Assembly (NCBI GenBank): GCA_000998135.1
Contig: LCCV01000002.1
Location: 29,421 to 93,420 of the forward strand
DNA: 64,000 nucleotides
From: Parcubacteria group bacterium GW2011_GWA2_42_14
GTDB lineage: Bacteria > Patescibacteriota > Minisyncoccia > Sungbacterales > GWA2-42-14
Direction of reading: 5' to 3'
Part shown: in pieces, positions 21,447 through 60,842 of the stretch
Layout of the letters: every line of letters starts with the position of its first letter
How positions within the stretch are numbered: the stretch's first letter is position 1
The notes under the pieces: model-generated
The model's database searches: none
The model's input: only the letters and a program-made list of their open reading frames with translations
What the model was told of the DNA's origin: nothing
Translations under genes and position numbers: made by a program

Positions 21447-21524
21447 AATAAGATTTAAGATAAGATTTAATACTTATGATTTAAGATTTAAGAATATTTT
21501 TAAAATTTTAAAACATAAAAACTT

Positions 21525-22481
<957 letters not shown>

Positions 22482-22662
22482 TTAATAAATCCTTAATCCA
22501 ATTCCAAAAAACCCCAAATTCAAAATCCCAAATTCCAAATATCAAAATTCAAATAATAAATACAAAATATATTACTGTTTGAATTTTGAAATTTTCCGCC
22601 GAAGGCGGATCCGCCTCTGGCGGAGAATTTATTTGGGATTTGGTGCTTTGGATTTTGAATTT

Positions 22663-23652: not shown

Positions 23653-23714
23653 AATTAACTATTTTACCATTTTAATTTAAAAAATCAATATCTTAAAGTA
23701 CGACTTCCAAAATA

Positions 23715-26146: not shown

Positions 26147-26176
26147 AATATCTCTTGTAAATTTTACTTAAACAAA

Positions 26177-27610: not shown

Positions 27611-27619
27611 TGCTTTATT

Positions 27620-28351: not shown

Positions 28352-28378
28352 ATTAAACGCAAACGATTTAACGCAAAA

Positions 28379-30844: not shown

Positions 30845-30901
30845 TAAAATACCGCAACGCTTAAAAAAATCGCCTAATTAATAAGCGATTAATTTATACA
30901 A

Positions 30902-32029
30902 TTATCTCTTTTTCGCAAGGGATGCGGTAGAATATCCTTCTATGCCGGTTACTTCCCGAAGCGGATAAAAAAACGGAGGAATTTCAACCGGTTCATTTTT
31001 ATCAATCAATTCTATTTCAAGAATAGCCAACCCCTTAAGACGTTCCGGTTTTTCAAAAATATCCAGTTCAAAATATTGATTTTTCCACAAAAAATAATGC
31101 CGTCTTTTATGAATGACATTACGCGTTTCATCGCGTTCATTTTCAAAAAAATCATTGTATTCTTTGCCATTGATCCGCGATTCATCCTCTATTGCCGCGC
31201 CGGCTTCCAAACCGCTTTTTTGAGTATGGTAATACAAACTAAAACCGCCACACACACGTTTTCTTATTCTTGACATGGGTTTACCGACCTCATGTTTAAG
31301 GTAAACCTGCTCCATAAAAACCTTAACCACTTTGACATTATACGGAGCTTCAACCACCACCATGTCGGAATAACCTAAATATCCCAGTAAAAATCTGCGC
31401 TCAATCTCAAGGGACCGCGGGATTCCCGCAAAGTGCCGTATCGCTTTTAATGTATTGAGAATTTTTTCTTCAAAATCAGCGCGGCTTTCTATCACCCGTA
31501 AATGCGGACAACCAATCCATGTTTCCCGGGTTCTCCCATCAAGAGAGGCGGCTTTTTCCGGTGATTCTGTTCTTGCGGTATTATTGGCCGTAGTATAAGA
31601 ATTTTCAGCGCCGATAGCGGCGGTAACCAAATGTATTACGCCGTCATTGATATCGCGCAATTCTGATACACTAATTCCCAATTTGCGTATCATGGCTTCA
31701 AGTTGCCCGGGAGGAAGGTAAGCAGAACCGCTCATAGTGCTACGGTCTTTAAGCAAAATAACAATTTTTTTGTTTTTATACCGCTCTGCTATTCTTCTAT
31801 ACCACCTTTCTTTCTCAATTTGCATAAACAGGATATGCATTTGAAATTCTTCATTAGAAAGTCCGTACTTACCGCCAGGAGAAACTCCGGCATTAAAAAC
31901 TTCAGTAGCGGTTTCCGGCACAATAATAATGCCCACATCTTCACTCTCAAGCTCCCTGGCGCGCTTTAAAACAGAGGATTTTCCGGCACCCGGACCGCCG
32001 TCAACAACAATTTCAACAATTCTGTTCAT
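30902..32029 (-). CDS. P-loop kinase/ATPase (AAA_28/NadR-kinase-like) fused to a CYTH (CyaB/ThTPase) triphosphate-tunnel domain.
   Basis: Walker A VVDGGPGAGKSSV at the N-terminus. The C-terminal domain opens with the CYTH hallmark EIERRFLL (ExExK-type) and downstream acidic and Arg/Lys residues. Confidence 0.6.
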   Translation of the reverse strand: MNRIVEIVVDGGPGAGKSSVLKRARELESEDVGIIIVPETATEVFNAGVSPGGKYGLSNEEFQMHILFMQIEKERWYRRIAERYKNKKIVILLKDRSTMSGSAYLPPGQLEAMIRKLGISVSELRDINDGVIHLVTAAIGAENSYTTANNTARTESPEKAASLDGRTRETWIGCPHLRVIESRADFEEKILNTLKAIRHFAGIPRSLEIERRFLLGYLGYSDMVVVEAPYNVKVVKVFMEQVYLKHEVGKPMSRIRKRVCGGFSLYYHTQKSGLEAGAAIEDESRINGKEYNDFFENERDETRNVIHKRRHYFLWKNQYFELDIFEKPERLKGLAILEIELIDKNEPVEIPPFFYPLREVTGIEGYSTASLAKKR

Positions 32030-35351: not shown

Positions 35352-38300
35352 CTACGGCAATAAATCCGGCGGAATGGTTTTTATGACATTGGAATCATCA
35401 TAAAAGTCAATGCCGCCGTTGTTTATGAGGTGATGCGAACTATCCACAGCCATGCCGACGCCGTTGTCGCGAAAAATCAAATTGCTTATAGTAGTGGTTG
35501 CGCTGCCGGAAATAACCAAAGCGTAATATTGCTTGCCGGGCAATAAATTGTCCCGAAAAATCGTATCCGTAACGGTGCTTGAGGCATTACTCGCGAGCCA
35601 AACGCCCTTAAACTTATTTTTTTCAATCACGGAATTTTTAATGGTAAGCGGCTCATTGCCGCCGGCCTTGATTCCGGCAAGATTATACCGCTCTTCTTCT
35701 CCTCCGGCGTATCTTATAACGGCGCCGTCAAAAACCGCTTCTCCAGAACCCCAAAAATCAATGCCCCGCCAATGCCCCAAAATCGGCTGGCTGGAAGTGG
35801 CGTCATTATTGGTATCCCCGCCGTATTCATCATCATAAAATGATGTAAAAACAACCGGCTCCTCGAGGGTGCCATTAGCCGAAAAAGCTCCGGCAATGGT
35901 CAAACCGGTATTAGGCATAAATTTAAACACCGCGCCCTTTTCCGCGGAAATATTTCCCGCAAACGTGTAATTTCCCCAATCAATAATATAAGGCAAGTCC
36001 TTGGCAAAAACATGATCATTGCCCGCGTTATTCCTGATAATAATTCCTTTAACGCCGGGGCTGTCGGAAATAACAGTGTTTCCTCCGAATAACGGCGGAG
36101 AACTTTCCGCAATGATAACATTTCCATTTTTATCAAAAGTGTTGTTGCGAACTTCTCCGCCATGTATGTCGGAGGAAAAAATTCCTCCGCCATTTTCCAA
36201 AAATGTATTATTTAAAACTTTTGGAGCAGAACCGGCTATTATCAATGCCTCAAGAGCGTTTTTATAAAATACGCTATTTTCTATGTTCGCATTGCAGTTT
36301 ATACAAGACAAACCCCTAAGCAAAGAGTGCTCAAGGCGTGAATTTTTAAACGAAAGAGCCGCGCTTGTGATATAAATCATGGCCCTTCTTTTAAACGGCA
36401 AATTATTATCCATATTTCCACCGTATCTGAAAAACGTGTTTAAAAATTCCGAACCGGAGCTTTCCAAATTAAAAGTGAATTGCCTCCAATTGCCTGCTTG
36501 AGGGCATATCGCGGTTGAAGAAGCGTTTAACGGGTCGCAAACGCCATCTTTATTGGTATCTCCGCCGTATTCATCATCATAAATGCCGGTAAAAACAATT
36601 GGCTCTTCGGGCGCGCCTCGCGAAAAGATTTTTCCGTAAACATTAATAATTGCCCAATAATCATTAGGCGGCATAATCTTTATAACCACGCCCGGCTCAA
36701 TATTAAGAACAGCGCCGTCTCTTATAGTTAAACCCGCTCTTCGGATAAGGTAAGGAGAATTTTCTTTGGTCAGAATTCTATCACCAGTCAAATTTCCGTC
36801 AACGGCAATCAAATAATTAACGCTGTTTCTGGCTTTGGGAGTACCATAAACCGGCCCGTCCTCGGCGTTTTTGTTAATATTGACTATTTCCTCTTCAAAA
36901 TAAGTCCCCCAGTTTGCCTGCGTTTCACCCGGAGCGTCCGGGTCAATTCTTTCCATAGAAAATCTTGCTAACAAAATACCTGCGCACCAGCCGGTAGGGC
37001 GCGAGCGATCCCATGGACAAAGTTCCGGGGTTCTATCAATGGTTCGGCTTGGCTCACCACTGGCGGTCGTAGAACCTTTTTCCAGTTTTAAAATCATTCC
37101 GTTGTCATCAAGCCCCGCGCCGAACGAAGCGATAAAATCGGCCTTAATAATTGATACGGCGTTATCATCATCACGCTCAATCAAATAATAACTTTTGGGC
37201 GCGATTTTACCGGAAAGATTGATTATTATTTTTGGCTCGGGCTCGCCGGGCTTAAAAAATTTCAACTGCCAACCGGTTAAATCAATTTCGGCTTCAGAAC
37301 GGCTCTTTAACTCAATCCATTCATCTTCACTGGTGGTTGCCGAATTGCCGGTTCCCGCCCAGGCGATTTCGTTTATAATGACCGGCATTTGATTTATTTC
37401 TAAGATTTTTACAATTTCAGCCGATTCATTTCCGGTTTTATCTTTGGCTTTAGCGCGAAATTCATAAAAAGTGTTTGGGGAAGCAGTAAAAATAAATGAT
37501 GTCGCAAACGGCGCGGTTGACGACGCCGTTGAGGTCGAACCTCCCATGGGAGGTTCGACCTCTATAAATTTCAGAAAATCGTCGCAATCTTGCCACGGCT
37601 GGCTTGTTTTTTGACGATAAGCGCAATTTAGGAAAAAGGACGCAATATCTTCGCTATTGGACTCCAAAAAAATCGTAAGAGTGGTTGTAGCAATAACGCA
37701 ATCAGTTTGAGAAAAACTGTCAGAACATTCCTGAATGTTCAAAGAAATGTCCGGCGGAGTAGTATCGGTCGTTGTAGTAGCAACACCGAGTGCTGCTGAC
37801 GCTTCAGCATCACTCGGTGTTGAAGCTTGAACCGGCGCAACATATTCCCCGCCCGCGCCAGCTATAAAATCACCCAAAGCATAAGGAGGAGGCGGAGGCG
37901 GAGTTGAAGTAGCAACACCGAGTGTTGGCATTGGTAGAAAAACACTCGGTGTTGAAGTGGCTGCAGGAGCCAAATCTAAAGTTTCAGAATCTATGGAGGT
38001 TGAACCTCCATAGATTTGAGGAACGGGCTCAATATCGGAGGTTTCCGAAATGGTTCGACTCGACTCACCATAAAAAGAGCCGAAATTCGCGATTTCGTCA
38101 TCAGCAACACCGAGTGCTGCCGACGCATCGGCATCACTCGGTGTTGACAACTCCGTTGTCGACTCCGTACTCGTAATAATCGCCGCTGTGTAAGAAGTGT
38201 TACTGTCTGAGCTTGCTTGCCCGTCCAAGTTTTCCGCAGAAAAGTTGGTCAGGGTCGAGAACAAACTACTTGTCCAATTCCACGCTTTCTGCCACCACGA

Positions 38301-39356
38301 GCGGTTTTTAAACCATAATTCCTTTGTTTGCTTTTCCTTTTCCACTTCGTCAAAAAAGAGCTTAACCACCCCGGCGCCGTTAATAACCGCCTGTTTTGAC
38401 AGCAAATTCCAGTAGTCGGTGAGGATGAGGTTGTCGTCGTCAGCAATAGAAAACTTGTTTTTGTTGTCTTTAGGATTCAACAAGTAATACCATCCAAAAG
38501 ATACATCCGACATTACAATATGATATTTTTTATCACTCAAAATACGATAACCAAATAATACGGATAACCCATTTGATAACTGTTCTTCTTCATAAAAACT
38601 TACATCTGGTTTAATAAATAAATCTGAAAAAATAGTATCTTTACTAAAAAAATTATTATTTGAATAGTTTGCCGTTGCATCAAAATAACTACTGATATTT
38701 GATAAAACATATGGTTTTTTACCGCTTTCTATAAGCTCGGCAACCGTATTTAAATTTTCCGGAGAAAATTTTCTGGTCCAATCTTCATAAGGACTTGAGT
38801 TTAAAACTTGAGAATGTTCAAACAGGCCAGCATGACCATCATTACGGGTATGTTCAGGCACAGTTGCGTCTTCCAAAAGATGTAATGTATGCCCCAATGA
38901 CTCCAATCCCCTATTTTTATCTACCCAGGCATAATCGTAAATCGCCCTTTCCCATGAATAATCCGAAGGCGATGAAAATAGGTCAAAAATTGAACCATAA
39001 GTTTTGTCGCGAAACACTCCGTCTTCCTGGGCTTGAGCCAAGGTGTTTTGCGACCAGTCTTTTGAGCTTTCCCAGCTCTCGCCAAGTATAGTAAGACCGC
39101 GATTATAAATCGGGTCGTAAAAATGGTGAAGCCATCTTGTCTCTTCGTCTTCATCAATGCTTCCATTCATTAAAATCGCAATCTCTTCGCTATTTAAGGC
39201 CTTTTCCTGATAATTGTGATTAAAAAAACGGCCGATTTCTTTGGTTAAAGCCGGATGAGTGGTTTGATCGTCATAGGCAAAAACAAGAATGGGCAGAAAT
39301 AAAACAAATACTGCCGCCCCAATCGCTGATATTGTGTGGGAATACTTCGATTGCAT
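35352..39356 (-). CDS. Very large (1334 aa) secreted surface protein with a lamin-tail domain, right-handed beta-helix/pectate-lyase-like repeats and Ala/Ser-rich repeated linkers.
   Basis: N-terminal signal peptide. LTD motif VIINEIAWAGTG...DEWIELKS...DLTGWQLK. Repeated NNTF-type beta-helix segments. Three repeats of PSDA[ED]ASAALGVA. Confidence 0.65.
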   Translation of the reverse strand: MQSKYSHTISAIGAAVFVLFLPILVFAYDDQTTHPALTKEIGRFFNHNYQEKALNSEEIAILMNGSIDEDEETRWLHHFYDPIYNRGLTILGESWESSKDWSQNTLAQAQEDGVFRDKTYGSIFDLFSSPSDYSWERAIYDYAWVDKNRGLESLGHTLHLLEDATVPEHTRNDGHAGLFEHSQVLNSSPYEDWTRKFSPENLNTVAELIESGKKPYVLSNISSYFDATANYSNNNFFSKDTIFSDLFIKPDVSFYEEEQLSNGLSVLFGYRILSDKKYHIVMSDVSFGWYYLLNPKDNKNKFSIADDDNLILTDYWNLLSKQAVINGAGVVKLFFDEVEKEKQTKELWFKNRSWWQKAWNWTSSLFSTLTNFSAENLDGQASSDSNTSYTAAIITSTESTTELSTPSDADASAALGVADDEIANFGSFYGESSRTISETSDIEPVPQIYGGSTSIDSETLDLAPAATSTPSVFLPMPTLGVATSTPPPPPPYALGDFIAGAGGEYVAPVQASTPSDAEASAALGVATTTTDTTPPDISLNIQECSDSFSQTDCVIATTTLTIFLESNSEDIASFFLNCAYRQKTSQPWQDCDDFLKFIEVEPPMGGSTSTASSTAPFATSFIFTASPNTFYEFRAKAKDKTGNESAEIVKILEINQMPVIINEIAWAGTGNSATTSEDEWIELKSRSEAEIDLTGWQLKFFKPGEPEPKIIINLSGKIAPKSYYLIERDDDNAVSIIKADFIASFGAGLDDNGMILKLEKGSTTASGEPSRTIDRTPELCPWDRSRPTGWCAGILLARFSMERIDPDAPGETQANWGTYFEEEIVNINKNAEDGPVYGTPKARNSVNYLIAVDGNLTGDRILTKENSPYLIRRAGLTIRDGAVLNIEPGVVIKIMPPNDYWAIINVYGKIFSRGAPEEPIVFTGIYDDEYGGDTNKDGVCDPLNASSTAICPQAGNWRQFTFNLESSGSEFLNTFFRYGGNMDNNLPFKRRAMIYITSAALSFKNSRLEHSLLRGLSCINCNANIENSVFYKNALEALIIAGSAPKVLNNTFLENGGGIFSSDIHGGEVRNNTFDKNGNVIIAESSPPLFGGNTVISDSPGVKGIIIRNNAGNDHVFAKDLPYIIDWGNYTFAGNISAEKGAVFKFMPNTGLTIAGAFSANGTLEEPVVFTSFYDDEYGGDTNNDATSSQPILGHWRGIDFWGSGEAVFDGAVIRYAGGEEERYNLAGIKAGGNEPLTIKNSVIEKNKFKGVWLASNASSTVTDTIFRDNLLPGKQYYALVISGSATTTISNLIFRDNGVGMAVDSSHHLINNGGIDFYDDSNVIKTIPPDLLP

Positions 39357-39505
39357 AAATTTATAAGTAGCAAAACACCACTAAAACGGCAAGGCCGGGC
39401 CTTTATAACGAAATCCGCTCTGCAAGCGGATTTAAGTTTAAAGATTTTGTGTCTGCGTATGTCTGCATTCTGTCTACGCCGGTCAGCGATGCGTGAAGCG
39501 CATAT

Positions 39506-39976
39506 TTATAAATCTAAAATTTTCCATTTATTGTTTACATTTTTAGCAACTAAAATTGTTAAGGCAACTTGTTTTTGGTCATTAGCAATACTAAAAGACA
39601 CCTGCCCATCAGAAATATCATTTTTATATTTCTTACGTTCTAAATCAAATGTCATTTCGGTAATTTTATTAGCGCTCTTAACATTATTTAAATTCCCTCT
39701 CCACTCCTCCTGCTTGTCCAGCACAAAGTATTTAGAGGCCAAATCAATGTCGCCGGTTTTCAGGGCCGAAATAAAAAGCTCAAGGGTTTCTTCGGGCGTG
39801 TCTCCGCCGTAAGTGTCGGCCATGTAGCGCTCTTTTTGGGCCAAAAGGTCCTGATATTTGTGGTATTCAGGCGAGGTTCTATAGCGATAATATCCTATGC
39901 CAAAGAAAATCCCGGCGCCGATAAGCACTATGACCAAAAACTGTAAAAAGTATTTAATTATGAGTTTTTTGTTCAT
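39506..39976 (-). CDS. Hypothetical membrane-anchored small protein.
   Basis: N-terminal TM helix (FLQFLVIVLIGAGIFFGIGYY), then a soluble domain with no recognised motif. Confidence 0.35.
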   Translation of the reverse strand: MNKKLIIKYFLQFLVIVLIGAGIFFGIGYYRYRTSPEYHKYQDLLAQKERYMADTYGGDTPEETLELFISALKTGDIDLASKYFVLDKQEEWRGNLNNVKSANKITEMTFDLERKKYKNDISDGQVSFSIANDQKQVALTILVAKNVNNKWKILDL

Positions 39977-40217
39977 AATATCAAATTATTATAATTGACT
40001 CAATTACTCTAAGTTACTCTGATTAAAACCAAAAGTCAAATGTCTTGTGTCTTGTGTAACTGTTGAATAATTGCCAAAAAGTTACCTCCTGAACTTTTCG
40101 CAAGACAACTTTTTGGCTTTAAATAAGGTAACCCCTCGACTCTGCTCGGGGGGTAAGAGGATTATTAATAACCTCTGTGGATAACTTTCGGTTTATTTTC
40201 GGTATTAAGGTGTTAAT

Positions 40218-41687
40218 ATGAAAATGATGCTAACTTTACGGCAAAAACAAATACTGGATTTTGTTGCCACCTACGCGCATAAACGGAAAATTGCCCCCTC
40301 GCTTGAAGAAATCAAAAGGCATTTTCGGCTAAAATCGGTTTCAAATATCCATCAGCACCTCAATGCTTTAGCGGCCAAGGGCTATTTAAACAGGTTCAAA
40401 AACCGGAAACGCGGCATTGAGCTCCCCCAATCCGAACGTCTCGTAAAAATACCGCTCTTGGGAGAAATTGCCGCAGGCAAACCGATAGAAGCAATAGAAC
40501 ATAAAGAGTTTATCGCGGTCCCCGAGTCAAAATTGGCTTCAGGCGGGGAAATTTACGCCCTTCGCGTAAAAGGAGACAGCATGATTGACGAACATATAAA
40601 TAACGGGGACACAATTTTAATAAAAAGGCAGAATGTCGCCGAAAACGGCCAAAAAGTGGTAGCGCTCCTTAACGGAAATGAAGCAACGCTTAAAACTTTT
40701 TACAAAGAAAGGGGGCAGATAAGATTGGAGCCGGCCAATAAAAATTATCAACCCCTCATAATAAAAAGGGGGCAGGAGTTTTCTTTGCAGGGCGTTTTAC
40801 TTGATGTAATAAAAACAAATGAGGATGAATGGCAAACAAAACCTTTTACATTGCCAGCCGAAGAAGGAAAAGGGCGACAAACTATTACTTTTCAAAAAAT
40901 CCCTCCTTATTTTGAAGAACGAAATTTTATTTTATATCATGGAGATTGTGTCGGCGTTCTTGCACAACTGCCGCCAGAATCGGTTGATATGATTTTTGCC
41001 GATCCTCCATACAATCTTTCCAATGATGGATTTTCGCTTCACGCCGGCAAAAGAGTTAGTGTAAATAAAGGAAACTGGGATAAGAGCAAGGGGTTTAAAG
41101 ATGACTACGATTTTCATTATCGCTGGCTCAATGCCTGCAAAAATATTCTAAAGCCCAACGGCACTCTTTGGGTAAGCGGAACATACCACTCAATTTATCA
41201 ATGCGGCTACGCGCTGCAATCTCTTGGTTATCACATATTAAATGATATTTCATGGTTCAAACCAAACGGCTCGCCGAATTTGAGCTGCCGTTATTTTACG
41301 GCCTCACACGAAACTTTGCTCTGGGCGCGAAAAGACAAAAAAGCGAAACATTTTTTCAACTATAATTTAATGAAAAAAGGGAATTGGCCGGAAGATTTTA
41401 TTAAAAAACCAAACCTGCAAATGCGTTCGGTTTGGGCGATTTATCCGCCTAAAAAGCCGGAAAAAACTTTTGGCAAACACCCAACGCAGAAGCCGCTAGA
41501 ATTATTAAAGAGAATTATCCTTGCATCAACAAACCCCGGCGCCGTCATTCTTGACCCGTTCACCGGAAGTTCCACAACGGGAATTGCCTCGGAAATAATA
41601 GGAAAAAGAAAGTTTATCGGAATTGATACTGATAAAAAATATCTCGAACTATCCGTAAAACGCTTTAAAGAGATTATGACGACATAA
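40218..41687 (+). CDS. Fusion protein: complete LexA-type repressor (wHTH plus S24 autopeptidase) fused to a beta-class (DPPY...FxGxG) N6-adenine/N4-cytosine DNA methyltransferase.
   Basis: N-terminal 200 aa: LTLRQKQILDFV... wHTH, cleavage-site region LLGEIAAGKPIEA, catalytic Ser in VKGDSMIDE and Lys in GNEATLKTFYK. C-terminal 270 aa: motif IV MIFADPPYN (41001-41012), then ...WVSGTY..., and C-terminal motif I ILDPFTGSSTTGIA. This is a single uninterrupted 489-codon ORF. Confidence 0.8.
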   Translation: MKMMLTLRQKQILDFVATYAHKRKIAPSLEEIKRHFRLKSVSNIHQHLNALAAKGYLNRFKNRKRGIELPQSERLVKIPLLGEIAAGKPIEAIEHKEFIAVPESKLASGGEIYALRVKGDSMIDEHINNGDTILIKRQNVAENGQKVVALLNGNEATLKTFYKERGQIRLEPANKNYQPLIIKRGQEFSLQGVLLDVIKTNEDEWQTKPFTLPAEEGKGRQTITFQKIPPYFEERNFILYHGDCVGVLAQLPPESVDMIFADPPYNLSNDGFSLHAGKRVSVNKGNWDKSKGFKDDYDFHYRWLNACKNILKPNGTLWVSGTYHSIYQCGYALQSLGYHILNDISWFKPNGSPNLSCRYFTASHETLLWARKDKKAKHFFNYNLMKKGNWPEDFIKKPNLQMRSVWAIYPPKKPEKTFGKHPTQKPLELLKRIILASTNPGAVILDPFTGSSTTGIASEIIGKRKFIGIDTDKKYLELSVKRFKEIMTT

Positions 41688-41703: not shown

Positions 41704-42279
41704 CTATCTTCTAAGGGGTAGGGCCGACTCTAACACTTCTGTATAGTGTTTTTTGCCGTCAATGTAGTCCCTTAATGTAAAGAGGAGATTTCGGAACATA
41801 TATGCACCCGGAGTCGCTTTTTCGTTTTTGGAAAAAAGTTCAATGACCGTAGCCACATAATCAAGCGAAAGGGTATAATTCTGCTCAATATGGGCATAAC
41901 GTTTGGTAATTTCTTCCACCGTTTCAAGTTTTAAATCATCTCGCTTCTTAACGGTAGTGAAAGGCGTGACACGGTCATAATAATCGATGTAATATTGTAT
42001 GATTTCTCGAACTTCTTTTCTATATTCCGGAATCTTAAGAAGTAAATCAACCACCCAATATGTATGCGGCGGGAGTACGGGTTTTTTATCGAGACCGGGC
42101 ACTAACACCTTAAGCTTAAAATCCAGTTTCGGATTCGCCCCGCGGCTACCTTGAAAAAGGGCGACAAGCGTCCCATCTTTTATTTTATATGTCTTGAACG
42201 CGCGCTCTTTGGGCGATAATTGCCAAAGATGCGTGCCGTCATAATATTTAAGATTATAAACAAGAGGAGTTTGCGGCAT
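41704..42279 (-). CDS. Hypothetical protein (191 aa), convergent with the LexA-MTase gene.
   Basis: ORF with good coding appearance. No recognised motif. It has a weak D...E-x-K-like segment (VVDLLLKIPEYRK). Confidence 0.35.
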   Translation of the reverse strand: MPQTPLVYNLKYYDGTHLWQLSPKERAFKTYKIKDGTLVALFQGSRGANPKLDFKLKVLVPGLDKKPVLPPHTYWVVDLLLKIPEYRKEVREIIQYYIDYYDRVTPFTTVKKRDDLKLETVEEITKRYAHIEQNYTLSLDYVATVIELFSKNEKATPGAYMFRNLLFTLRDYIDGKKHYTEVLESALPLRR

Positions 42280-42357: not shown

Positions 42358-43176
42358 TTAGAAGACCGGCGATAAAGTAGGGAAAGTTTCAAAAAGACTT
42401 TTAATTTTGGGTAGCGGTGATCGGTTGAATGGCGGATAAGCAAAAGCGAAAAAAAATTTTGCAAGAGAACGGCGGTTTAATAAAACCGCAACCAAATTAG
42501 CAAAAGTAAGCAGGGTATTTATTCTTCCGTAATCACCCTCTGCATTCTCATGGCCCATGGTATGCATTTTTACATCTTCATTTAACGCCAAAACGTCTAA
42601 AAAATACAAATACACATCTATAGGAATGCCCTCAATTTCTGGCAATCTTTTTTTGAGAACAGCTAAGGAAATTTTCGGAGGCACATATCTCCATTTATTC
42701 TCCTTATTTTTCATATGGTCTAACATAAAAGCCATTCGATAAATCAACATTCCAAAAATTTCTAAGCCGAAGATGTCGGCGCGCATAAGATGCCCTATTT
42801 GCTCAAACATATCTCCAAACGTTAAATCCTTACCAATCTTAACTCCTGCTTGCATGATAAAAGGATTCATATCATTTTTATTATTTGTGATTTTACCTGT
42901 TTTATAATGCTTACGTTTAAAATCGGGGGCCGCTTCTTTTCCCGGCTTGCCAACAGCAACAACAAAATCATGGCTCTTATAAATCTCCGTTGTTATTCTA
43001 TGCGCCTGGTCTTTGCCCCTCGGCCATCCTATTGCCTCTTGCAGCATTTCTATTCGAAGGGGCCTGGCAGTTGAGCTTAATTTATTAAGAGTAATTAAAC
43101 AAAGTTCTTTATTAATTGCCAAAATGGTTTCTTCCGGTATGCCGAGAGCTAAATAATATTCTTCGGTTATTTTCAT
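42358..43176 (-). CDS. Hypothetical protein (272 aa).
   Basis: ORF only. No recognised domain. It has a possible Rx6H segment (RMAFMLDH) but nothing diagnostic. Confidence 0.35.
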   Translation of the reverse strand: MKITEEYYLALGIPEETILAINKELCLITLNKLSSTARPLRIEMLQEAIGWPRGKDQAHRITTEIYKSHDFVVAVGKPGKEAAPDFKRKHYKTGKITNNKNDMNPFIMQAGVKIGKDLTFGDMFEQIGHLMRADIFGLEIFGMLIYRMAFMLDHMKNKENKWRYVPPKISLAVLKKRLPEIEGIPIDVYLYFLDVLALNEDVKMHTMGHENAEGDYGRINTLLTFANLVAVLLNRRSLAKFFFAFAYPPFNRSPLPKIKSLFETFPTLSPVF

Positions 43177-44041: not shown

Positions 44042-44384
44042 TAAAATGATACTCCCTAAGCGAGCCCTGCGAGTCGAAGGGTTTCCTTGAATGTATGCCT
44101 TCGACCCGCTTCGCCAAAGCTTCAGCGAGGCGAGTCAGCGAGGCGAGCAAGCTCGAAGAATAAGCAGAGATTACTTCGTCGGTACGCCTCCTCGCAATGA
44201 CGCCGGAATAGTACCTTATAAAAATTATCATTAATAAAGAGATAAATCAATGGTCGTCATCATATATTGCCTGAACTTGTTGAAGGCATACCTTAATGGT
44301 AAACCCTTCGACTCGGCTCAGGGAATAATATTTATAAACAGACCGTCCGAAAACTATAGAACTTCAAAAAACTCGAACAATAAT

Positions 44385-44460: not shown

Positions 44461-47400
44461 TTAGTAGGAAACAACTTCAGCTGCCATGTTCGTCGCGGGC
44501 AGACCTACCACGCCAAATCCATTGGTCCAGTCCTTGCTGGAAAGCGCAGCGGTAGTCGTAGCGTTTGGAGACCAGATTAAGTCATTATGGGTTTGATCAG
44601 CTATACCCGCAGTTGAAGGAGTAGTTGATGCCTGACCCATAATCGGGTTGGTAGCAGACGGTGTTCCGGGTATCAATCCAGGATATGCTCCATCACCTTC
44701 AAGTTGTGTTGATACGGATGAGTTGGTGGAAACCGAGGAAACGGTTGCCACAACATCAAAGTATCTGGTTGCGCCCGCGGGAACTTGAATAACATCTGTA
44801 GGTACTCCTAGAACACTTCCTGACTGAGTTACCGGGTCAAAGTAGACGCTAAACTGGTTACCACCGCCATACAAAACGTTATCCTCAGTTCCAGCGCTAA
44901 ACCATTCTTTCTTATTTTGAACCGGAATCGCGGTATTGTTCAACAAACCGGAATTGGCATAAGCCGCGATTGAGAAGAGAATATCGCTATAACCATACAC
45001 ACGCAAATTCTGCACAGTTGCCGAAGTCGTTGACATCACAAAGGTGAATTTAGCCAATCCTATATCGCCGTGGGAATCCGCGGTTACCTTGAACCTCAAC
45101 AAACTGACAGTACCTGCGGCGAGTTTATTCGTCGACAAGGAAACTTTAGCAAATGTCGGGTAGGACTTGAACATCCTTACGCCGTTGGAAGCTGTGCTTG
45201 AAACCGCGGCAGTATCAGCGGTCTTTGTCTGAATGGTAGAACCGGATGATTGCCCAACGCCTTCCGTTCCCCTGCTGCCTCCGTCAAAATCAACTACAAC
45301 CAAAGCTCCTTCAGTTCCAACCTGCGAAGTGCCGATTGCGCTCAAATCGCCTTTTACGGTCAGAGTCTTATCCCCATCTTTGGGAATCACGAAATCGGCC
45401 GTAAGGGTTGAAGTTGAATAATCGGTACCGGTAAACAAACCTTCTCCGACCTTGGTTGAACCGTCCCACAAAGTATATTTCACAATATCCGCGGGAGCGT
45501 TATTGGTCGTGGAAGAAAGTTTCAATGCAAGTTTTTGAAGCGTAATGGCTTCGTTGGTCGCGTGTAAGTTGAGTAACGCCAACGGAACATCCGTAGTGTT
45601 TCCGGCAACTATCGCGTAAGTCGGACTTGAAGCGCTAAGCGATACGGACAATGAGCCACCTGCAACCAAAGTCATTTCATTCTGATCGTCGGTGGAAGCG
45701 AGATGAGTTACGGTTGCCGCTTGCCCTGATGTAACACCAGTCGCGGAAAGAGTACTTGCCGCAATCTGCCATTCTGCCTGATTACTAGCAGTCAAGTTTG
45801 CAGGAATATTGCACTTGATGGCCAAGGTCTTGGTTGTTCCTTTGGGAATAATCAAGTGGCTATCAAGCGTAAAGGTTTTTGCTCCTTCAGTAGCTATATC
45901 AACAACATTGGTGCCGGTATTCAGGGCGGTTGCTCCGTCCCAAACTTGGCAACCAGTCAAATCTGTCGTATCTGCTCCGGTATCATCCGCAAACGTAAAG
46001 CTAAGGGTGGTAAAACGAATATCCTCGCCGGAAGCCGTTGCGTCAAACACCGGCTTGGCAAAGGTAAATCCTTGTATACCCATAACTACGTTTTGCGCGG
46101 GCGGGTCGGAAGACAAAGTAACAGTAACAACCGCGCTTTTTACAGTCATAGTATTTCCGGTAACTTGTCCAGCTGGAGTCGGGGTAACCGCTGTTCCGGT
46201 AACGGCACCGGTTCCGTTCCTCCAATCCGTTCCCGGAGTGGTGGAAGCGATAATAGTGTCATTATTTTCAAAACCGGAAGTCGCGGCTAATTTGCCCTTT
46301 AAGGTATAAAGGCCTTTTCCAATGGGGAAAGTAATGGAATCGGTAAAGGTTACATATCCATGAGCAACTAAGCTGTTTACGGTATTTCCCGCTTGTCCGT
46401 CAACAGGACCGGCAACAACCGCTCCTGACGGGCCAACCAATACTATATTGTCAATGTCGTCAACATCAATTTCCGCTCCTCCGTCAGAATCAGAAAGAGT
46501 AAAGCGGAAAGAAGTTTCTGGAATCGTTACCGCCTCTCCCTTTACTTCCACATCAAATCCACCCAAGGGCTGGTCAGCAAGAGTTACAGCAACATTTTGC
46601 GATGCTACCGCTGTTGATTTGGATACAACTATGGAGCCAGCGCCGATATTAATGGCATTGGCATTATAAGCCGGGCTAGCTGAATCAAATCCAGCTGTGC
46701 CAGTATCGGCAGGCAATAAGCCATATCCATACTGGGCTCCGACTACATAAAGGTCGTCATGGCGGTAAATGTCAAAATCAACTGTTCTCGCGGAACCGGA
46801 AACAATATCGCCTTTTACGTAAATTTCAGCGGTATTGCCTTTCAAAACTTTGACTCCAGTTCCAAAAACAGAGGTGTAATATTTTCCATCAGAACTTACG
46901 GTCGTGTCATAAGCAGTTCCGGCAACATAAACCTTGACATTAGCAAGGTCGGCCGTGGCCGCGGAACCGGATTGGTTGAATTTGACTGATTTAATCCAGA
47001 TGTCCTCCCCTGCTCCTGCTGTTCCTTTAATAGAAGAGAACACATAACCGGTTGTTCCAACTTCTTTGGTAATACCGGTTGTTGAAGGATCAAGCGGACC
47101 CCTGATAAGGTCAAATCCACCTACAAGGCCTGATGTTTCGTTCATGGTCTGACCGGTGCCTGCAACCGGAAGTCCGGTAACTGTGGCTGAACCAGCGCTC
47201 ACCGCCACAACTGTCAAGCGGATAACCTGTCCGGAATAACCGGTGGTTGCTCCGCGATTAGCGGCAATAGTCATGGTTTTAGAAGTTCCTGCTTTTACGG
47301 TGAAGGGCTCGGTCAAGACCGCCTGATGAAGGGAATTCAAGGTCTTGGAAAGACCTAATTGAAGTCCGTCTTCACCAAGAATAACGATTCCGGAAAGAGC

Positions 47401-48078
47401 CGCATCCTGTCCAATGCCCTGACGTTCAACTGTTACGGAGCTGACAGTTACATCACCGTCAGAACCGGCAGTAAACACTACACTGGTAAATGGAACGCGA
47501 GTTACACTCAACGGAACCAAGGCCGCGGCAGGCTGTGCACCTGCTGATACGCTAAGACCTGTTCCTGATGGAACTGTTGGCGTTGTTGGTGTTTCTGTGG
47601 TTGGCGTTGTTGGTGTTTCTGTGGTTGGCGTTGTTGGAGTTGTTGGAGTTGTTGGAGTTACCGGAGCCACTGCCATTGAATTATACTTTGCCTGGGAAAT
47701 TGGACCAAAGTATCCGACGGCCGGAGAAACCCCGTTTGCCGCCTGCCAAGCAGCTACTGCCGCTTGAGTGACAGAACCGAAATATCCGGTGGCACCCCCC
47801 GCATAAGTGAAGTGACCTGTTGAAGTTAAATAATTCTGCAAGCATGTTACAGCATCCCCTCTTGAACCGACTGTAAGAGCGCTAGTGAAACCGCAAGCGG
47901 CTCCGCCGCCACCTCCTCCGCCGGAAAGGGCGACGAGTTGTGCTTGAAGGGCCGTGATTTGAGCTTGCAACTGGGCAATGAGATCTGCCGTTGACTGTTG
48001 CGCCAATGACGCGACAGGGGTCAGAACCAAAGCTCCGGTAAGCCAAACCGCGGCTGAGGTTGAAATAAATTTATTCAT
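44461..48078 (-). CDS. Giant (1205 aa) secreted cell-surface protein with an N-terminal peptidoglycan-binding-like domain, a PTT-repeat linker and long Thr/Gly/Val-rich beta-repeats.
   Basis: Signal peptide MNKFISTSAAVWLTGALVLTPVASLAQ. A Gly run. PG_binding_1-like GSRGDAVTCLQNYLTSTGHF...GYFGSVTQAAVAAWQAANGV. (PTTPTTETPTT)n linker. The remainder is Ig-like beta-rich. Confidence 0.65.
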   Translation of the reverse strand: MNKFISTSAAVWLTGALVLTPVASLAQQSTADLIAQLQAQITALQAQLVALSGGGGGGGAACGFTSALTVGSRGDAVTCLQNYLTSTGHFTYAGGATGYFGSVTQAAVAAWQAANGVSPAVGYFGPISQAKYNSMAVAPVTPTTPTTPTTPTTETPTTPTTETPTTPTVPSGTGLSVSAGAQPAAALVPLSVTRVPFTSVVFTAGSDGDVTVSSVTVERQGIGQDAALSGIVILGEDGLQLGLSKTLNSLHQAVLTEPFTVKAGTSKTMTIAANRGATTGYSGQVIRLTVVAVSAGSATVTGLPVAGTGQTMNETSGLVGGFDLIRGPLDPSTTGITKEVGTTGYVFSSIKGTAGAGEDIWIKSVKFNQSGSAATADLANVKVYVAGTAYDTTVSSDGKYYTSVFGTGVKVLKGNTAEIYVKGDIVSGSARTVDFDIYRHDDLYVVGAQYGYGLLPADTGTAGFDSASPAYNANAINIGAGSIVVSKSTAVASQNVAVTLADQPLGGFDVEVKGEAVTIPETSFRFTLSDSDGGAEIDVDDIDNIVLVGPSGAVVAGPVDGQAGNTVNSLVAHGYVTFTDSITFPIGKGLYTLKGKLAATSGFENNDTIIASTTPGTDWRNGTGAVTGTAVTPTPAGQVTGNTMTVKSAVVTVTLSSDPPAQNVVMGIQGFTFAKPVFDATASGEDIRFTTLSFTFADDTGADTTDLTGCQVWDGATALNTGTNVVDIATEGAKTFTLDSHLIIPKGTTKTLAIKCNIPANLTASNQAEWQIAASTLSATGVTSGQAATVTHLASTDDQNEMTLVAGGSLSVSLSASSPTYAIVAGNTTDVPLALLNLHATNEAITLQKLALKLSSTTNNAPADIVKYTLWDGSTKVGEGLFTGTDYSTSTLTADFVIPKDGDKTLTVKGDLSAIGTSQVGTEGALVVVDFDGGSRGTEGVGQSSGSTIQTKTADTAAVSSTASNGVRMFKSYPTFAKVSLSTNKLAAGTVSLLRFKVTADSHGDIGLAKFTFVMSTTSATVQNLRVYGYSDILFSIAAYANSGLLNNTAIPVQNKKEWFSAGTEDNVLYGGGNQFSVYFDPVTQSGSVLGVPTDVIQVPAGATRYFDVVATVSSVSTNSSVSTQLEGDGAYPGLIPGTPSATNPIMGQASTTPSTAGIADQTHNDLIWSPNATTTAALSSKDWTNGFGVVGLPATNMAAEVVSY

Positions 48079-48079
48079 A

Positions 48080-49453
48080 ATTTTTTATCTAAGTTAATTA
48101 TAACTTTTCCAAAAATTTTTTCCGTGGTTCGATAAACTCACCACGAGAAGAAAAAGATGGAAAAGAAATTTACAATCACGATTCATAACCTCTTCGACTT
48201 TACCCGATATTCCAAAGGAAAATTTAGGGTAAAAAAGATTTAAATCGTGAATAACAAAATCAAATTAATAATAATCAATGTTTTGGAGTCAAGTCACCCT
48301 CATGCGTCTTGAATCATGAATCTTGAAACTTGAAACATGAATTACGAAACATGAGATGGTCCGCTCCATCTTGTCATATTTAAATATTTTAATATTTAAA
48401 TATTCAAAGCGGGAGGGTCGACCGGACTTTAAAACTCCTAAATCAAAAACAAATTAAGAATTTACTAATTTTTTCTTTTGCATCCGAACCTAAACCAAAA
48501 CCATCATCAAACAGAAAAGTAATTTTTAATTATCAAGGTTCTTGCCGTTCAGAATCATGAAACATGAAACATGAAATTTCAATCGTTTACAACCAAATTT
48601 CGAAATTAAAGCAACCAAGTTATACTATCAATTCCGAAATTTAATTGCAAATTATATTGTGAATAATGGTGGTTCGATAAACTTACCATAAATTCGGTTT
48701 GCTCACCGCAAGTGTTAAATAACTACAAACAAGCCAAAAATTGGCTCATTTAATTTAAAAAAATTAAGTCATAACTATCTTAAATTATTATATATCTCCG
48801 CAAATGGTTCAACTCTGCTTACCACAAGTATATTATAAACCCACTAAAAATCACTTGCAAATAGGCATTGTGGATAAGTGCTACAGCTTCAAAACCAAAA
48901 TATAGTACTTATATTGCTTAATTTTCAAGCATTTTTGCCATTTCGGCAATAACAGCAATTTAACGGCAAAAAACCAACTTATCTGATATCTGATATTATT
49001 ATTATAAATCATATAAAAAAGCAAATAAACTCTGTTGTGGATAAGTTAATTCTATACAAAAATGGCATAAAAAACCCCATTTGCAACTATCCTTTTTACC
49101 TTTCACGGCATTCAAAGCTCATAGGAGCAGATTTCACGCGAATATTAACACTGATTAACGCGGAAATAAATAACCGGGAATGGCCAAAATCTATCTTAAA
49201 GCCTTAAAAAATAGCTTATTTTATTAAAATTAACCTAATTATTCTGATAAATTCACCTAATTCCTAATTACCTAATTCACCTAATAAAATTTCTAATGCA
49301 CTAATACTTAATTCTTAATTTAAAATTTTGGAATTTGGTTATTTTATTAGAAATTAGGTGAATTAGACAATTAGAAATTCTTTAAGCAAACTCAAAAATC
49401 AGCAAAATTTATCCTTCGACAAGCTCAGGCAATAACCATTTTTGATATGGGTT
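48080..49453. other. 1.37-kb gene-free AT-rich region with short tandem repeats, two perfect DnaA-box nonamers and two covarying hairpins.
   Basis: No ORF of 60 aa or more on either strand. tgtggataa occurs at 48869-48877 and 49036-49044. ggttcgataaact loops sit at about 48125-48150 and 48668-48695 with different stems. catgaaa heptad repeats are present. Confidence 0.5.
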
Positions 49454-60600: not shown

Positions 60601-60665
60601 ATGCATGAAACATGGAACATGCAACATGGAACATGAAAACTATAAACATGCCACTTGCCGCACGC

Positions 60666-60842
60666 CGCTTGTTATTAAAAACACCGCTTATGAGCGGGTC
60701 TTAGATAAAATATTTTATCTTTCCCCGTTCGGTCTTCCTTCGCACGAAGCTTCGGAGGACGAGGATGGATTTAGCACCACATTAACACCTTTTGTTAATA
60801 GGCTGCTGGCGGTTCATTGAGCCAAAACTCTCCCCGCGCTCT
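60666..60842 (-). ncRNA. SAM-I (S-box) riboswitch with terminator in the metK leader.
   Basis: Minus-strand sequence: tttatcaagag (P1 5') ... ggggagagttttggctcaatgaacc ... gtggtgctaaatcc (conserved GUGCUAAAUCC) ... cgaagcttcgtgcgaagg (P4 hairpin) ... aaagataaa (P1 3'). It is followed by hairpin cccgct-cata-agcgg plus a T-tract. Confidence 0.6.

What the first reader, a model, noticed from the sequence alone, without database searches (positions are those of the whole stretch)
40218..41687. Full-length LexA repressor fused in-frame to a DPPY-type DNA methyltransferase
A single 489-codon ORF encodes a complete LexA. It has the wHTH, the Ala-Gly cleavage region, the catalytic Ser of GDSM and the Lys of TLK. 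A linker of about 25 aa follows, then a complete beta-class amino-MTase with motif IV DPPY before motif I FxGSSTTG. A C-protein or simple HTH fused to an MTase is known. An MTase tethered to an SOS-type, RecA-activated self-cleaving repressor is not something I recognise as described. It would couple DNA methylation, or release of a free MTase, to DNA damage or phage induction. The fused HTH could also autoregulate or target the MTase to specific loci. Neighbours are two convergent uncharacterised genes (41704..42279 and 42358..43176) and a TPR protein. They could be the cognate nuclease or effector of an SOS-controlled R-M or defence module. A MITE and a DnaA-box-like tgtggataa sit in the upstream leader.
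Basis: partly seen in the sequence, partly recalled or inferred. Interest (0 to 1): 0.82.

Follow-up and report, generated by a model that had tools for sequence, protein, structure and literature searches.

The report
LexA repressor fused to restriction-system methylase
A single gene in this candidate-phyla-radiation (Patescibacteria) bacterium joins a complete, apparently self-cleaving SOS repressor (LexA) to the protective DNA methylase of a restriction-modification cassette; it is one member of a large undescribed family, which suggests these bacteria tie self-DNA methylation to the RecA/single-stranded-DNA alarm signal.

Summary
ORF 40218..41687 encodes 489 aa: a full LexA (above NCBI's LexA equivalog cut-off; Ala86-Gly87, Ser121 and Lys159 invariant) fused to a beta-class N6_N4 methylase (DPPY, then FxGSSTTG).

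It is not an artefact. More than 120 90%-identity clusters share the architecture. At least 27 50%-identity clusters carry the same LexA module (45-58% identical) on very different methylases (DPPY, SPPY, DPPF, D12).

The methylase belongs to a Type II restriction-modification family. Its best annotated relative is LlaDCHIB of the GATC system on pSRQ700 (53.5%, against 42-44% for CcrM-type enzymes). Sibling loci carry MutH/Sau3AI-like or other small partner genes. The closest standalone LexA heads a DpnI-family gene. GATC is strongly avoided (O/E 0.22).

An 11-bp-period direct repeat (40187..40203) abuts the -10 and covaries with the LexA recognition helix, so it is the likely operator. A DnaA-box-like 9-mer (40176..40184) is conserved at these promoters.

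The neighbours g191 and g272 travel with the fusion as a cassette but have no recognisable nuclease fold. Self-cleavage would detach only the DNA-binding domain; the methylase would stay attached to the S24 domain.

No description was found in the literature I could search. One subscription paper could not be read.

The parts
40218..41687 (+). LexA-methylase fusion gene (489 aa)
   Evidence: ORF. Three Pfam domains. LexA equivalog above cut-off. More than 120 homologous clusters with the same architecture.
40230..40415 (+). LexA winged-helix DNA-binding domain (aa 5-66); recognition helix S-V-S-N-I-H-Q-H
   Evidence: PF01726. The helix type covaries with the operator half-site.
40473..40478 (+). 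Ala86-Gly87, the predicted self-cleavage site
   Evidence: Invariant in 27 sequences. Aligns with solved LexA structures.
40452..40799 (+). Peptidase S24 domain (aa 79-194) with Ser121 (40578..40580) and Lys159 (40692..40694)
   Evidence: PF00717. The Ser/Lys dyad is invariant.
40815..40922 (+). Variable linker (about aa 200-235)
   Evidence: The only poorly conserved stretch in alignment A1.
40983..41657 (+). Beta-class N6_N4 DNA methylase domain (aa 256-480); DPPY at 41001..41012, FxGSSTTG at 41559..41582
   Evidence: PF01555. Closest solved structure is CcrM 6PBD, residues 16-261. Best annotated relative is LlaDCHIB of pSRQ700, 53.5% identity.
40187..40203 (+). Direct repeat TTCGGT-N5-TTCGGT (11-bp period), the predicted LexA operator; it abuts the -10-like TATTAA at 40203..40208
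   Evidence: Unique exact match in the window. Present at all fusion promoters and at lexA-dpnI promoters. Half-site covaries with the recognition helix, 12/12 against 6/6.
40176..40184 (+). DnaA-box-like TGTGGATAA
   Evidence: Present with at most 1 mismatch upstream of 16/16 fused genes and 5/7 standalone lexA genes, against 16/66 methylase-only genes. Orientation and distance vary.
41704..42279 (-). g191: conserved partner gene of unknown fold, convergent with the fusion
42358..43176 (-). g272: conserved partner gene of unknown fold, upstream of g191
40132..40151 (.). GC-rich palindrome in the leader (REP-like); probably not part of the system
   Evidence: Recurs with 3 mismatches at 44304..44323.

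Best explanation
The gene encodes the modification methylase of a Type II restriction-modification cassette, most likely GATC-specific and of the DpnA/LlaDCHIB type. Its N-terminus has been replaced or extended by a complete LexA repressor.

Proposed mechanism:
1. The fusion dimerises through the S24 domain. Its two winged-helix domains bind the 11-bp-period direct repeat that fills the -35/-10 spacer of its own promoter, so the protein represses its own synthesis. This matches the known N-terminal-HTH methylases of Type II systems. (Inferred from covariation and position.)
2. RecA filaments form on single-stranded DNA after DNA damage, self-restriction breaks or uptake of transforming DNA. 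The S24 domain then cuts at Ala86-Gly87. The DNA-binding domain is lost, the promoter is derepressed, and an untethered S24-methylase dimer remains. (Inferred from intact catalytic residues.)
3. The net effect is methylase output gated by SOS and single-stranded DNA. In sibling cassettes where the nuclease gene follows in the same operon, nuclease output is gated too. Unmethylated repair or recombination products would then be protected from the cell's own nuclease. This is a LexA-based counterpart of the competence induction of DpnA in pneumococcus. (Hypothesis.)

In the window the partner genes are g191 and g272. They are transcribed convergently and are not visibly under the operator. Their biochemical roles are unknown.
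For: Shown:
- Intact LexA and methylase halves under purifying selection.
- The methylase family is nearly always followed by a small partner gene of one of several unrelated families: 173 aa in 33 loci, MutH/Sau3AI family PF02976 in 20, DUF6996/6997 in 12, 204 aa in 3. This is typical of Type II R-M.
- The best annotated relative is the second methylase of the LlaDCHI system on pSRQ700, at 53.5% identity over 100% of the domain. It is flanked there by a D12 methylase and a DpnII-family nuclease. LlaDCHI is a GATC system related to DpnII (PMC4132740).
- The closest standalone LexA (58% identical) sits 14 nt upstream of a DpnI-family gene and has the same promoter cassette.
- GATC O/E is 0.22 in the window, uniformly across it, and below 1 in all 26 related loci examined. 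GANTC is about 0.9.
- The operator is unique in the window, lies only at lexA or fusion promoters in 1.2 Mb, and abuts the -10. Its half-site partitions perfectly with the recognition-helix type, including four loci examined after the prediction was made. In L016 the same half-site appears as an inverted repeat.
- Patescibacteria LexA is cited in the literature as a direct-repeat binder (PMC7739468).
- Autorepression by N-terminal-HTH methylases is an established mode of R-M regulation (PMC3874152).
- DpnA is a stress/competence-induced ssDNA methylase that protects incoming DNA (PMC3573125).
- Twenty-seven of 27 long LexA-headed 50%-identity clusters are methylase fusions. The LexA halves are conserved and the methylase cargoes diverse, which argues that the fusion itself is selected.
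Against: - No biochemical evidence exists for cleavage, DNA binding or methylation specificity.
- By solved structure and NCBIfam model the nearest named enzyme is CcrM (GANTC), so GATC is an inference.
- In the window itself no recognisable nuclease is present. g191 and g272 have no nuclease fold or profile link.
- The stability of the S24-methylase fragment is unknown. If it is degraded, as LexA fragments are in E. coli, induction could lower methylase activity rather than raise it.
- Whether this LexA also runs a genome-wide SOS regulon could not be tested, because no SOS genes are present in any DNA held.
- The covariation counts ignore phylogenetic non-independence.
Confidence: 0.55

Rival explanations
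1. The fusion is simply the cell's one global SOS repressor, whose gene happens to have captured a methylase. LexA works as usual on a genome-wide regulon, and the methylase is a passenger made in fixed proportion to LexA, as an SOS-regulon member by fusion. This overlaps with the best explanation and differs mainly in scope.
For: - The LexA half passes the LexA equivalog cut-off.
- Upstream synteny (g1334-g156-fusion) is shared by the window and L012 while the downstream cargo differs, as expected for a resident lexA locus acting as an insertion hotspot.
- More divergent standalone lexA genes with the same TTATCCACA box lie directly upstream of the methylase gene in L017, L023 and L030.
- Patescibacteria LexA is reported to bind a direct repeat (PMC7739468).
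Against: - The operator is found only at its own promoter in 1.2 Mb of related DNA.
- A Woesebacteria fusion and a Liptonbacteria fusion are 84% identical in the LexA half and 87% in the methylase half. That fits horizontal transfer of the whole gene better than vertical inheritance of a housekeeping regulator.
- The cassette sits in unrelated contexts, for example between dnaK and dnaJ in L084.
Confidence: 0.3
2. Damage-triggered suicide (abortive-infection logic). RecA-stimulated cleavage marks the S24-methylase fragment for proteolysis. Protective methylation falls while the nuclease persists, and the cell restricts its own or the replicating phage DNA.
For: - The cleavage site and dyad are intact.
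- R-M systems behave as toxin-antitoxin-like addiction modules and induce SOS when unbalanced (PMC3874152).
- In the window the partner genes are not under the LexA operator, so derepression would not raise them in step.
Against: - Cleavage also derepresses the promoter, which should replenish the methylase.
- In operon-type siblings the nuclease is co-transcribed with the fusion.
- L014 encodes S24 plus methylase without the wHTH as a natural stand-alone protein, which suggests that this fragment is stable and functional.
Confidence: 0.1
3. The LexA part is only a dimerising, DNA-binding autorepressor, a large 'C-protein'. It is never cleaved in vivo, so there is no link to DNA damage.
For: - N-terminal-HTH methylases and C proteins already do this job without any protease (PMC3874152).
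- Operator position and covariation support repression but say nothing about cleavage.
Against: Ala-Gly, Ser and Lys are invariant across 27 sequences at 60-73% identity, and the S24 domain is retained in all 27 distant fusion clusters. A dimerisation-only role would not preserve the catalytic dyad and the scissile bond.
Confidence: 0.12
4. An orphan, CcrM-like (GANTC) epigenetic or cell-cycle methylase, tied to replication through the DnaA box and to damage through LexA. Not an R-M component.
For: - The closest solved structure and the best NCBIfam model are CcrM.
- A DnaA-box-like 9-mer is conserved at the promoter.
- No recognisable nuclease is present in the window.
Against: - It scores 240 bits against the CcrM equivalog cut-off of 830 and lacks the CcrM C-terminal domain.
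- It is more similar to LlaDCHIB (53.5%) than to alphaproteobacterial CcrM-type enzymes (42-44%).
- 65 of 82 related loci have an immediately adjacent nuclease-like partner.
- GANTC is not unusual (O/E 0.93), while GATC is strongly avoided.
Confidence: 0.07
5. A prophage or mobile-element CI-like repressor fused to a phage methylase.
For: - S24 repressors and methylases are both common in temperate phages.
- Serine recombinases lie near several related cassettes.
- Methylase-only relatives occur on viral contigs.
Against: - None of 50,697 phage genomes and no IMG/VR contig carries the full fusion.
- There are no phage structural or replication genes around it in the window or in related loci.
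- The N-terminal half is LexA-type, not CI-type.
Confidence: 0.04

Closest known systems
LexA, the SOS repressor (TIGR00498; structures 3K2Z, 1JHH, 3JSO)
   Same: The full-length wHTH plus S24 architecture, the Ala-Gly site and the Ser/Lys dyad. It scores above the equivalog cut-off. A predicted operator lies in its own promoter. It appears to recognise a direct repeat, as reported for Alphaproteobacteria, Balneolaeota and Patescibacteria LexA.
   Different: It carries a 290-aa C-terminal extension containing a DNA methylase. The only target seen is its own promoter. At least some members appear to be horizontally transferred together with an R-M cassette.
Type II modification methylases with an N-terminal autoregulatory HTH (SsoII, EcoRII, MspI, Ecl18kI type; review PMC3874152)
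   Same: A DNA-binding domain is fused to the N-terminus of the methylase, and the operator overlaps the methylase promoter. The logic of autorepression is the same.
   Different: In those enzymes the regulatory domain is a simple HTH of about 70 aa with no protease. Here it is a complete LexA of about 200 aa, predicted to be inactivated by RecA-stimulated self-cleavage.
DpnII / LlaDCHI GATC systems and their second methylase DpnA/LlaDCHIB (PMC3573125, PMC4132740)
   Same: The methylase domain is 53.5% identical to LlaDCHIB. Some sibling loci also carry a D12 (Dam-like) methylase. Alternative cassettes headed by the same LexA carry a DpnI-family gene, which mirrors the DpnI/DpnII dichotomy. 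DpnA is induced by a stress and DNA-uptake regulon, which is conceptually what a LexA fusion would achieve.
   Different: Induction there runs through ComX and a cin-box, not LexA, and there is no fusion. The partner nucleases here are MutH-like, or of unknown families, rather than DpnII-family. ssDNA activity is untested.
CcrM (Caulobacter, 6PBD) / M.HinfI
   Same: The same beta-class fold. CcrM is the best structural template (E 8e-58).
   Different: The CcrM C-terminal domain is absent, the score is below the equivalog cut-off, the enzyme is not an orphan, and the likely target differs.
C-protein-controlled R-M systems (e.g. PvuII; PMC2175313)
   Same: A dedicated transcription factor times the expression of an R-M cassette.
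   Different: C proteins are separate small HTH activator/repressors that bind palindromic C-boxes upstream of the C and R genes. They are not fused, not self-cleaving and not of LexA type.

Membership tests
LexA (S24 self-cleaving SOS repressor) | N-terminal LexA-type winged helix-turn-helix | tested here: met
   PF01726, residues 5-66, E 1e-15.
LexA (S24 self-cleaving SOS repressor) | S24 domain with Ser/Lys dyad and Ala-Gly scissile bond | tested here: met
   PF00717, residues 79-194. A86-G87, S121 and K159 are invariant in 27 sequences.
LexA (S24 self-cleaving SOS repressor) | Score above the curated equivalog cut-off | tested here: met
   TIGR00498: 176.5 bits against 110.95.
LexA (S24 self-cleaving SOS repressor) | RecA-stimulated self-cleavage | not testable with these tools
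   Needs biochemistry.
LexA (S24 self-cleaving SOS repressor) | Represses a regulon of DNA-repair genes as well as itself | tested here: inconclusive
   The operator was inferred at its own promoter only. No SOS genes are present in any DNA held.
Beta-class N6/N4 DNA methylase (PF01555) | Motif IV (DPPY) precedes motif I (FxGxG); Pfam score above cut-off | tested here: met
   DPPY at 262-265, FxGSSTTG at 448-455. 192.7 bits against 26.7.
CcrM / HinfI (GANTC) family | Equivalog-level similarity to CcrM | tested here: not met
   NF050803: 240 bits against a cut-off of 830.
CcrM / HinfI (GANTC) family | C-terminal non-specific DNA-binding domain | tested here: not met
   Aligns only to residues 16-261 of the 366 in 6PBD. 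The protein ends 3 aa after the aligned region.
DpnII-type GATC R-M, second (DpnA/LlaDCHIB-like) methylase | Closest characterised relative is a DpnA/LlaDCHIB-type enzyme | tested here: met
   53.5% identity over 100% of the domain to the pSRQ700 second methylase, against 42-44% to CcrM-type enzymes.
DpnII-type GATC R-M, second (DpnA/LlaDCHIB-like) methylase | Adjacent GATC-type nuclease (DpnII or MutH/Sau3AI family) | tested here: inconclusive
   A MutH-family gene lies immediately downstream in 20-22 sibling loci and in L087 and L089. In the window the partners are g191 and g272, of unknown fold.
DpnII-type GATC R-M, second (DpnA/LlaDCHIB-like) methylase | Companion D12 (Dam-like) methylase | tested here: not met
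   Present in 5 sibling loci but not near the fusion in the window.
DpnII-type GATC R-M, second (DpnA/LlaDCHIB-like) methylase | Methylates GATC (including ssDNA) | not testable with these tools
   The only indirect evidence is GATC O/E of 0.22 in the window and below 1 in 26/26 loci.
Type II methylases with N-terminal autoregulatory DNA-binding domain | DNA-binding domain fused N-terminally to the methylase | tested here: met
Type II methylases with N-terminal autoregulatory DNA-binding domain | Operator overlapping the methylase promoter | tested here: met
   In silico only. The direct repeat lies between the -35 and the -10 and covaries with the recognition helix.
C-protein-controlled R-M | Separate small C gene with C-boxes upstream of the nuclease gene | tested here: not met
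   There is no small HTH gene, and no intergenic space or motif upstream of g272.

The most novel reading that the evidence does not exclude
Patescibacteria have turned LexA into a portable, RecA-responsive controller that is physically fused to the methylases of many different restriction-modification systems. The same signal that reports DNA damage or incoming transforming DNA (RecA on single-stranded DNA) would then switch on the cell's self-marking enzyme. Through docking of the S24 domain to the RecA filament, it might even deliver that enzyme to the DNA. This would be an SOS-gated 'programmed protection' that reconciles restriction with recombination and natural competence in these ultra-small, DNA-scavenging bacteria. 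g191 and g272 would be a new, structurally unprecedented restriction or effector pair.
Probability: 0.3. Interest if true: 0.85.

Novelty: new variant of a known kind. Interest (0 to 1): 0.72.

Why it matters
R-M systems must balance killing foreign DNA against not killing the host during repair, recombination and DNA uptake. The known solutions are C proteins, HTH-methylases, ClpXP-mediated restriction alleviation and competence-induced DpnA.

A LexA-methylase fusion would be a fifth solution, and the most direct. The damage/ssDNA sensor and the protective enzyme are one polypeptide. The idea is immediately testable with purified protein (self-cleavage, EMSA on a 17-bp operator, a methylation assay).

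It is widespread in the candidate phyla radiation, a group whose regulation is almost unknown and which relies on DNA uptake. It also shows LexA acting as a modular domain fused to enzymes, which is unusual for this repressor. Finally, it flags two conserved protein families (g191, g272) with confident but unmatched folds as candidate new R-M components.

Tried and rejected
- **Same neighbours in L001?** The 191/255-aa pair beside the fusion in L001 is not homologous to the window's 191/272-aa pair, so the size match is coincidental.
- **CcrM-type GANTC orphan.** Rejected on the equivalog cut-off, the missing C-terminal domain, the higher identity to LlaDCHIB and the k-mer statistics.
- **oriC near 48-49.5 kb** as an explanation for the DnaA-like boxes. 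There is no GC-skew switch and no dnaA gene.
- **Operator elsewhere in the window or in 1.2 Mb of loci.** Only background-level degenerate matches were found.
- **Restriction-site avoidance by partner type.** GATC is modestly low in every group, so this does not discriminate between partner families.
- **recA in the held DNA**, to test the regulon. None was found in Patescibacteria loci.
- **Phage or plasmid origin of the fusion.** No full-length hit.
- **Sanchez-Osuna et al. 2017** (Patescibacteria SOS network) could not be read because it is not held. Whether it mentions the fusion is unknown.
Full report
**Observation.** The window contains one uninterrupted ORF at 40218..41687 (+) of 489 codons.
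- Pfam finds LexA_DNA_bind (residues 5-66), Peptidase_S24 (79-194) and N6_N4_Mtase (256-480), all far above threshold.
- NCBI's LexA equivalog model TIGR00498 scores 176.5 bits against a cut-off of 110.95, over residues 4-201.
- The LexA half aligns end to end with solved LexA structures. The methylase half aligns with residues 16-261 of Caulobacter CcrM (6PBD).

**The fusion is real and selected.**
- A search of 5.8 billion proteins returned at least 120 clusters (90% identity level) with all three domains, at 60-97% identity and 99% coverage. The named ones come from Parcubacteria and Woesebacteria MAGs.
- In an alignment of 27 of them (60-73% identical), the following are invariant: the scissile Ala86-Gly87, Gly119-x-Ser121-Met122, Thr157-Leu158-Lys159, DPPY and FxGSSTTG. 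Only residues about 200-235 vary.

**What the methylase is.**
- A scan of one genome per GTDB species found at least 579 loci encoding a close relative, essentially all Patescibacteria.
- I classified the 83 loci held at that point (80 from this scan plus L001-L003). About 15 are fused. In L017, L023, L030 and L037 a separate lexA lies directly upstream of the methylase gene, with gaps of 10-30 nt in the first three. The rest encode the methylase alone, at 68-76% identity.
- I then clustered all ORFs within 4.5 kb, without prior assumptions. The methylase is almost always followed at once, on the same strand, by one of several mutually unrelated small proteins:
  - a 173-aa family with weak PD-(D/E)XK signals, in 33 loci;
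  - a MutH/Sau3AI-family protein (PF02976), in 20 loci;
  - a DUF6996+DUF6997 protein, in 12 loci;
  - a 204-aa family, in 3 loci.
- Five loci add a D12 (Dam-like) methylase.
- One conserved methylase with interchangeable, non-homologous partners is the hallmark of a Type II restriction-modification family.

**Likely specificity.**
- The best annotated relative of the methylase domain is the second methylase of pSRQ700 (53.5% identity over 100% of the domain). Alphaproteobacterial CcrM-type genes reach only 42-44%.
- On pSRQ700 that gene sits between a D12 methylase and a DpnII-family endonuclease. This is the LlaDCHI system, which acts on GATC and is related to DpnII (PMC4132740).
- MutH/Sau3AI-type partners are also associated with GATC; that statement rests on general knowledge of the family.
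- GATC is the most avoided palindromic tetramer in the window (34 observed, 154 expected; O/E 0.22). The avoidance is uniform along the 64 kb and holds in all 26 related loci examined. GANTC is near expectation.
- The CcrM equivalog cut-off is missed by a wide margin, and the CcrM C-terminal domain is absent.
- I therefore favour GATC (about 0.7) over GANTC.

**The LexA module is a general front end for restriction cassettes.**
- An exhaustive HMMER search of 1.8 billion representatives found many more LexA-headed long proteins at 36-45% overall identity.
- All 27 that I examined are LexA_DNA_bind + Peptidase_S24 + a DNA methylase.
- Their LexA halves are uniformly 45-58% identical to the window's. 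Their methylase halves range from 71% to unalignable: 213 of 378 pairs have no alignment, and the motif IV types are DPPY, SPPY, DPPF or D12-class.
- The closest standalone LexA (P0175, 58%) lies 14 nt upstream of a DpnI-family gene (PF06044 + PF17726), the methyl-dependent counterpart of DpnII.
- A Woesebacteria fusion and a Liptonbacteria fusion are 84% (LexA half) and 87% (methylase half) identical, which suggests that the whole gene moves horizontally.
- Public annotation calls these proteins either 'LexA' or 'DNA methyltransferase'.
- No sequenced phage and no IMG/VR contig carries the fusion.

**Promoter and operator.**
- Upstream of every fusion gene there is a DnaA-box-like TGTGGATAA(C/G)T, in either orientation and at variable distance.
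- There is also an 11-bp-period direct repeat whose 3' copy abuts a -10-like hexamer. In the window these are 40176..40184, 40187..40203 (TTCGGTTTATTTTCGGT) and TATTAA at 40203..40208.
- The exact repeat is unique in the window. In 1.2 Mb of related DNA, clean copies occur only at lexA or fusion promoters, including the lexA-dpnI loci.
- The half-site covaries with the recognition helix:
  - S-T-[IV]-H-[QE]-H goes with TTTCGG(T/G) in 12 of 12 loci;
  - S-T-[AI]-H-[FY]-[HY] goes with TTTCTA or TTTCGA in 6 of 6 loci.
- Four of those loci (L087-L090) were fetched after the rule had been formulated.
- In L016 the same half-site forms an inverted repeat. That is expected for a dimer with flexibly linked DNA-binding domains.
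- An open paper lists Patescibacteria among the lineages where LexA evolved direct-repeat recognition (PMC7739468). The primary paper is not held.
- I conclude that the repeat is the operator of the fused LexA domain and that the gene is autorepressed. This is an in-silico inference.
- The TGTGGATAA box tracks lexA (16/16 fused, 5/7 standalone, 16/66 methylase-only, mostly imperfect). It is also about 7-fold enriched generally in these genomes. Its binding factor is unknown, and DnaA is the obvious candidate.

**The neighbours.**
- g191 (41704..42279, -) and g272 (42358..43176, -) each belong to compact, highly conserved, Patescibacteria-only families with no Pfam, NCBIfam or PADLOC hit.
- The arrangement g272 -> g191 -> <- fusion recurs in Harrisonbacteria, inserted between dnaK and dnaJ, and in L088. 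The three genes therefore form a cassette.
- g191 also occurs beside the methylase in 11 of 83 loci, usually together with a 173-aa or MutH-like partner. L027 has a g191-like domain fused to the C-terminus of the methylase.
- Their linkage is established and their function is not. The TPR gene is not conserved with the module.
- g272 has no upstream intergenic space or operator, so in this cassette type the partners are not visibly LexA-controlled. In operon-type siblings the nuclease gene overlaps or follows the fusion by 4 nt.

**Mechanism.** This is my best account; each step is marked.
1. Shown: an intact LexA and an intact methylase in one chain, an R-M family context, and an operator-like repeat in the core promoter.
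2. Inferred: dimeric binding and autorepression, as for the N-terminal-HTH methylases reviewed in PMC3874152.
3. Inferred: RecA/ssDNA-stimulated cleavage at Ala86-Gly87, which removes the wHTH, derepresses the promoter and leaves S24 plus methylase in one piece.
4. Hypothesis: the result is induction of modification (and, in operon-type cassettes, of restriction) by damage or DNA uptake. That would protect unmethylated repair or recombination products.

This parallels the competence induction of the ssDNA methylase DpnA (PMC3573125). L014 naturally encodes S24 plus methylase without a wHTH, which hints that this fragment is a functional entity.

The rivals are a purely global SOS LexA with a passenger methylase, damage-triggered suicide, a non-cleaving C-protein-like role, a CcrM-like orphan, and a prophage repressor. 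They are listed with their evidence in the Rival explanations section.

**Novelty.**
- I found no description of a LexA-methylase fusion, or of LexA-controlled restriction-modification, in six searches of the literature and three relevant open papers.
- The architecture is present but unremarked in public databases.
- The one paper most likely to mention it (Sanchez-Osuna et al. 2017) could not be read.
- I rate it a new variant of a known kind: autoregulated R-M methylases and LexA are each well known, and the combination and its breadth are new.

Noticed in passing
window 48079..49453: A 1.4-kb ORF-free, AT-rich (GC 0.33) region with tandem CATGAAA/CTTGAAA-type repeats and TGTGGATAAG boxes at 48869 and 49036 (plus a one-mismatch copy at 48658). 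There is no dnaA gene nearby and no GC-skew switch, so it is not obviously oriC.
   Followed up: partly
window, whole: Besides GATC (O/E 0.22), AGNCT (0.26), CTAG (0.42) and TCGA (0.49) are strongly under-represented. This suggests exposure to several other restriction specificities. I know of no standard enzyme that targets AGNCT.
   Followed up: no
L008:7968-9818, L011:5427-7265, L026:5461-6654, L047:8010-9182: An extra domain of about 125 aa follows the methylase ('LYRGIN...TSWTY...DDKEVLI', an R-S-E-like pattern reminiscent of ADP-ribosyltransferases). It has no Pfam hit. In L008 and L011 this gives LexA-methylase-X triple fusions.
   Followed up: partly
L027:516-1895: The methylase is fused at its C-terminus to a g191-like domain. 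This is a second 'Rosetta stone' linking g191 physically to the methylase.
   Followed up: partly
L014:7950-9200: A natural S24-plus-methylase protein without the wHTH. It starts 14 residues before the Ala-Gly site and lies directly after a hydrogenase gene. It resembles the predicted post-cleavage product.
   Followed up: partly
L091:1125-2551, L092:743-2169: A lexA-dpnI operon: a 213-aa LexA, 58% identical to the fused domain, lies 14 nt upstream of a DpnI-family (methyl-dependent GATC) endonuclease and has the same promoter cassette.
   Followed up: yes
window 60712..60851 (-): A SAM riboswitch (RF00162, 63.6 bits) upstream of metK (59554..60627).
   Followed up: no
window 40132..40151 and 44304..44323: A GC-rich palindrome CCCCTCGACTCTGCTCGGGG occurs twice in the window (3 mismatches between copies).
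   Followed up: partly
window 41001..41004: One of only 34 GATC sites in the window lies inside the DPPY catalytic-motif codons (GAT CCT) of the methylase gene itself.
   Followed up: no
window 1..32000, 35352..39356, 44461..48078: A large surface-glycan biosynthesis cluster (glycosyltransferases, sugar epimerases, a DegT aminotransferase) and two giant secreted or surface proteins (1334 and 1205 aa) flank the cassette. ClpB is at 52077..54773.
   Followed up: partly
Patescibacteria loci L001-L092: Perfect TGTGGATAA/TTATCCACA 9-mers are about 7-fold over-represented (57 against 8.3 expected in 1.09 Mb), and most are not at lexA promoters. The box is a general regulatory or replication element in these genomes.
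   Followed up: partly
window 35352..40217 versus L012:1-1700: Upstream synteny (giant surface protein, 156-aa DUF4878-like gene, fusion) is shared by the window and L012, while the genes downstream of the fusion differ. This fits cargo exchange at a fixed lexA locus.
   Followed up: partly
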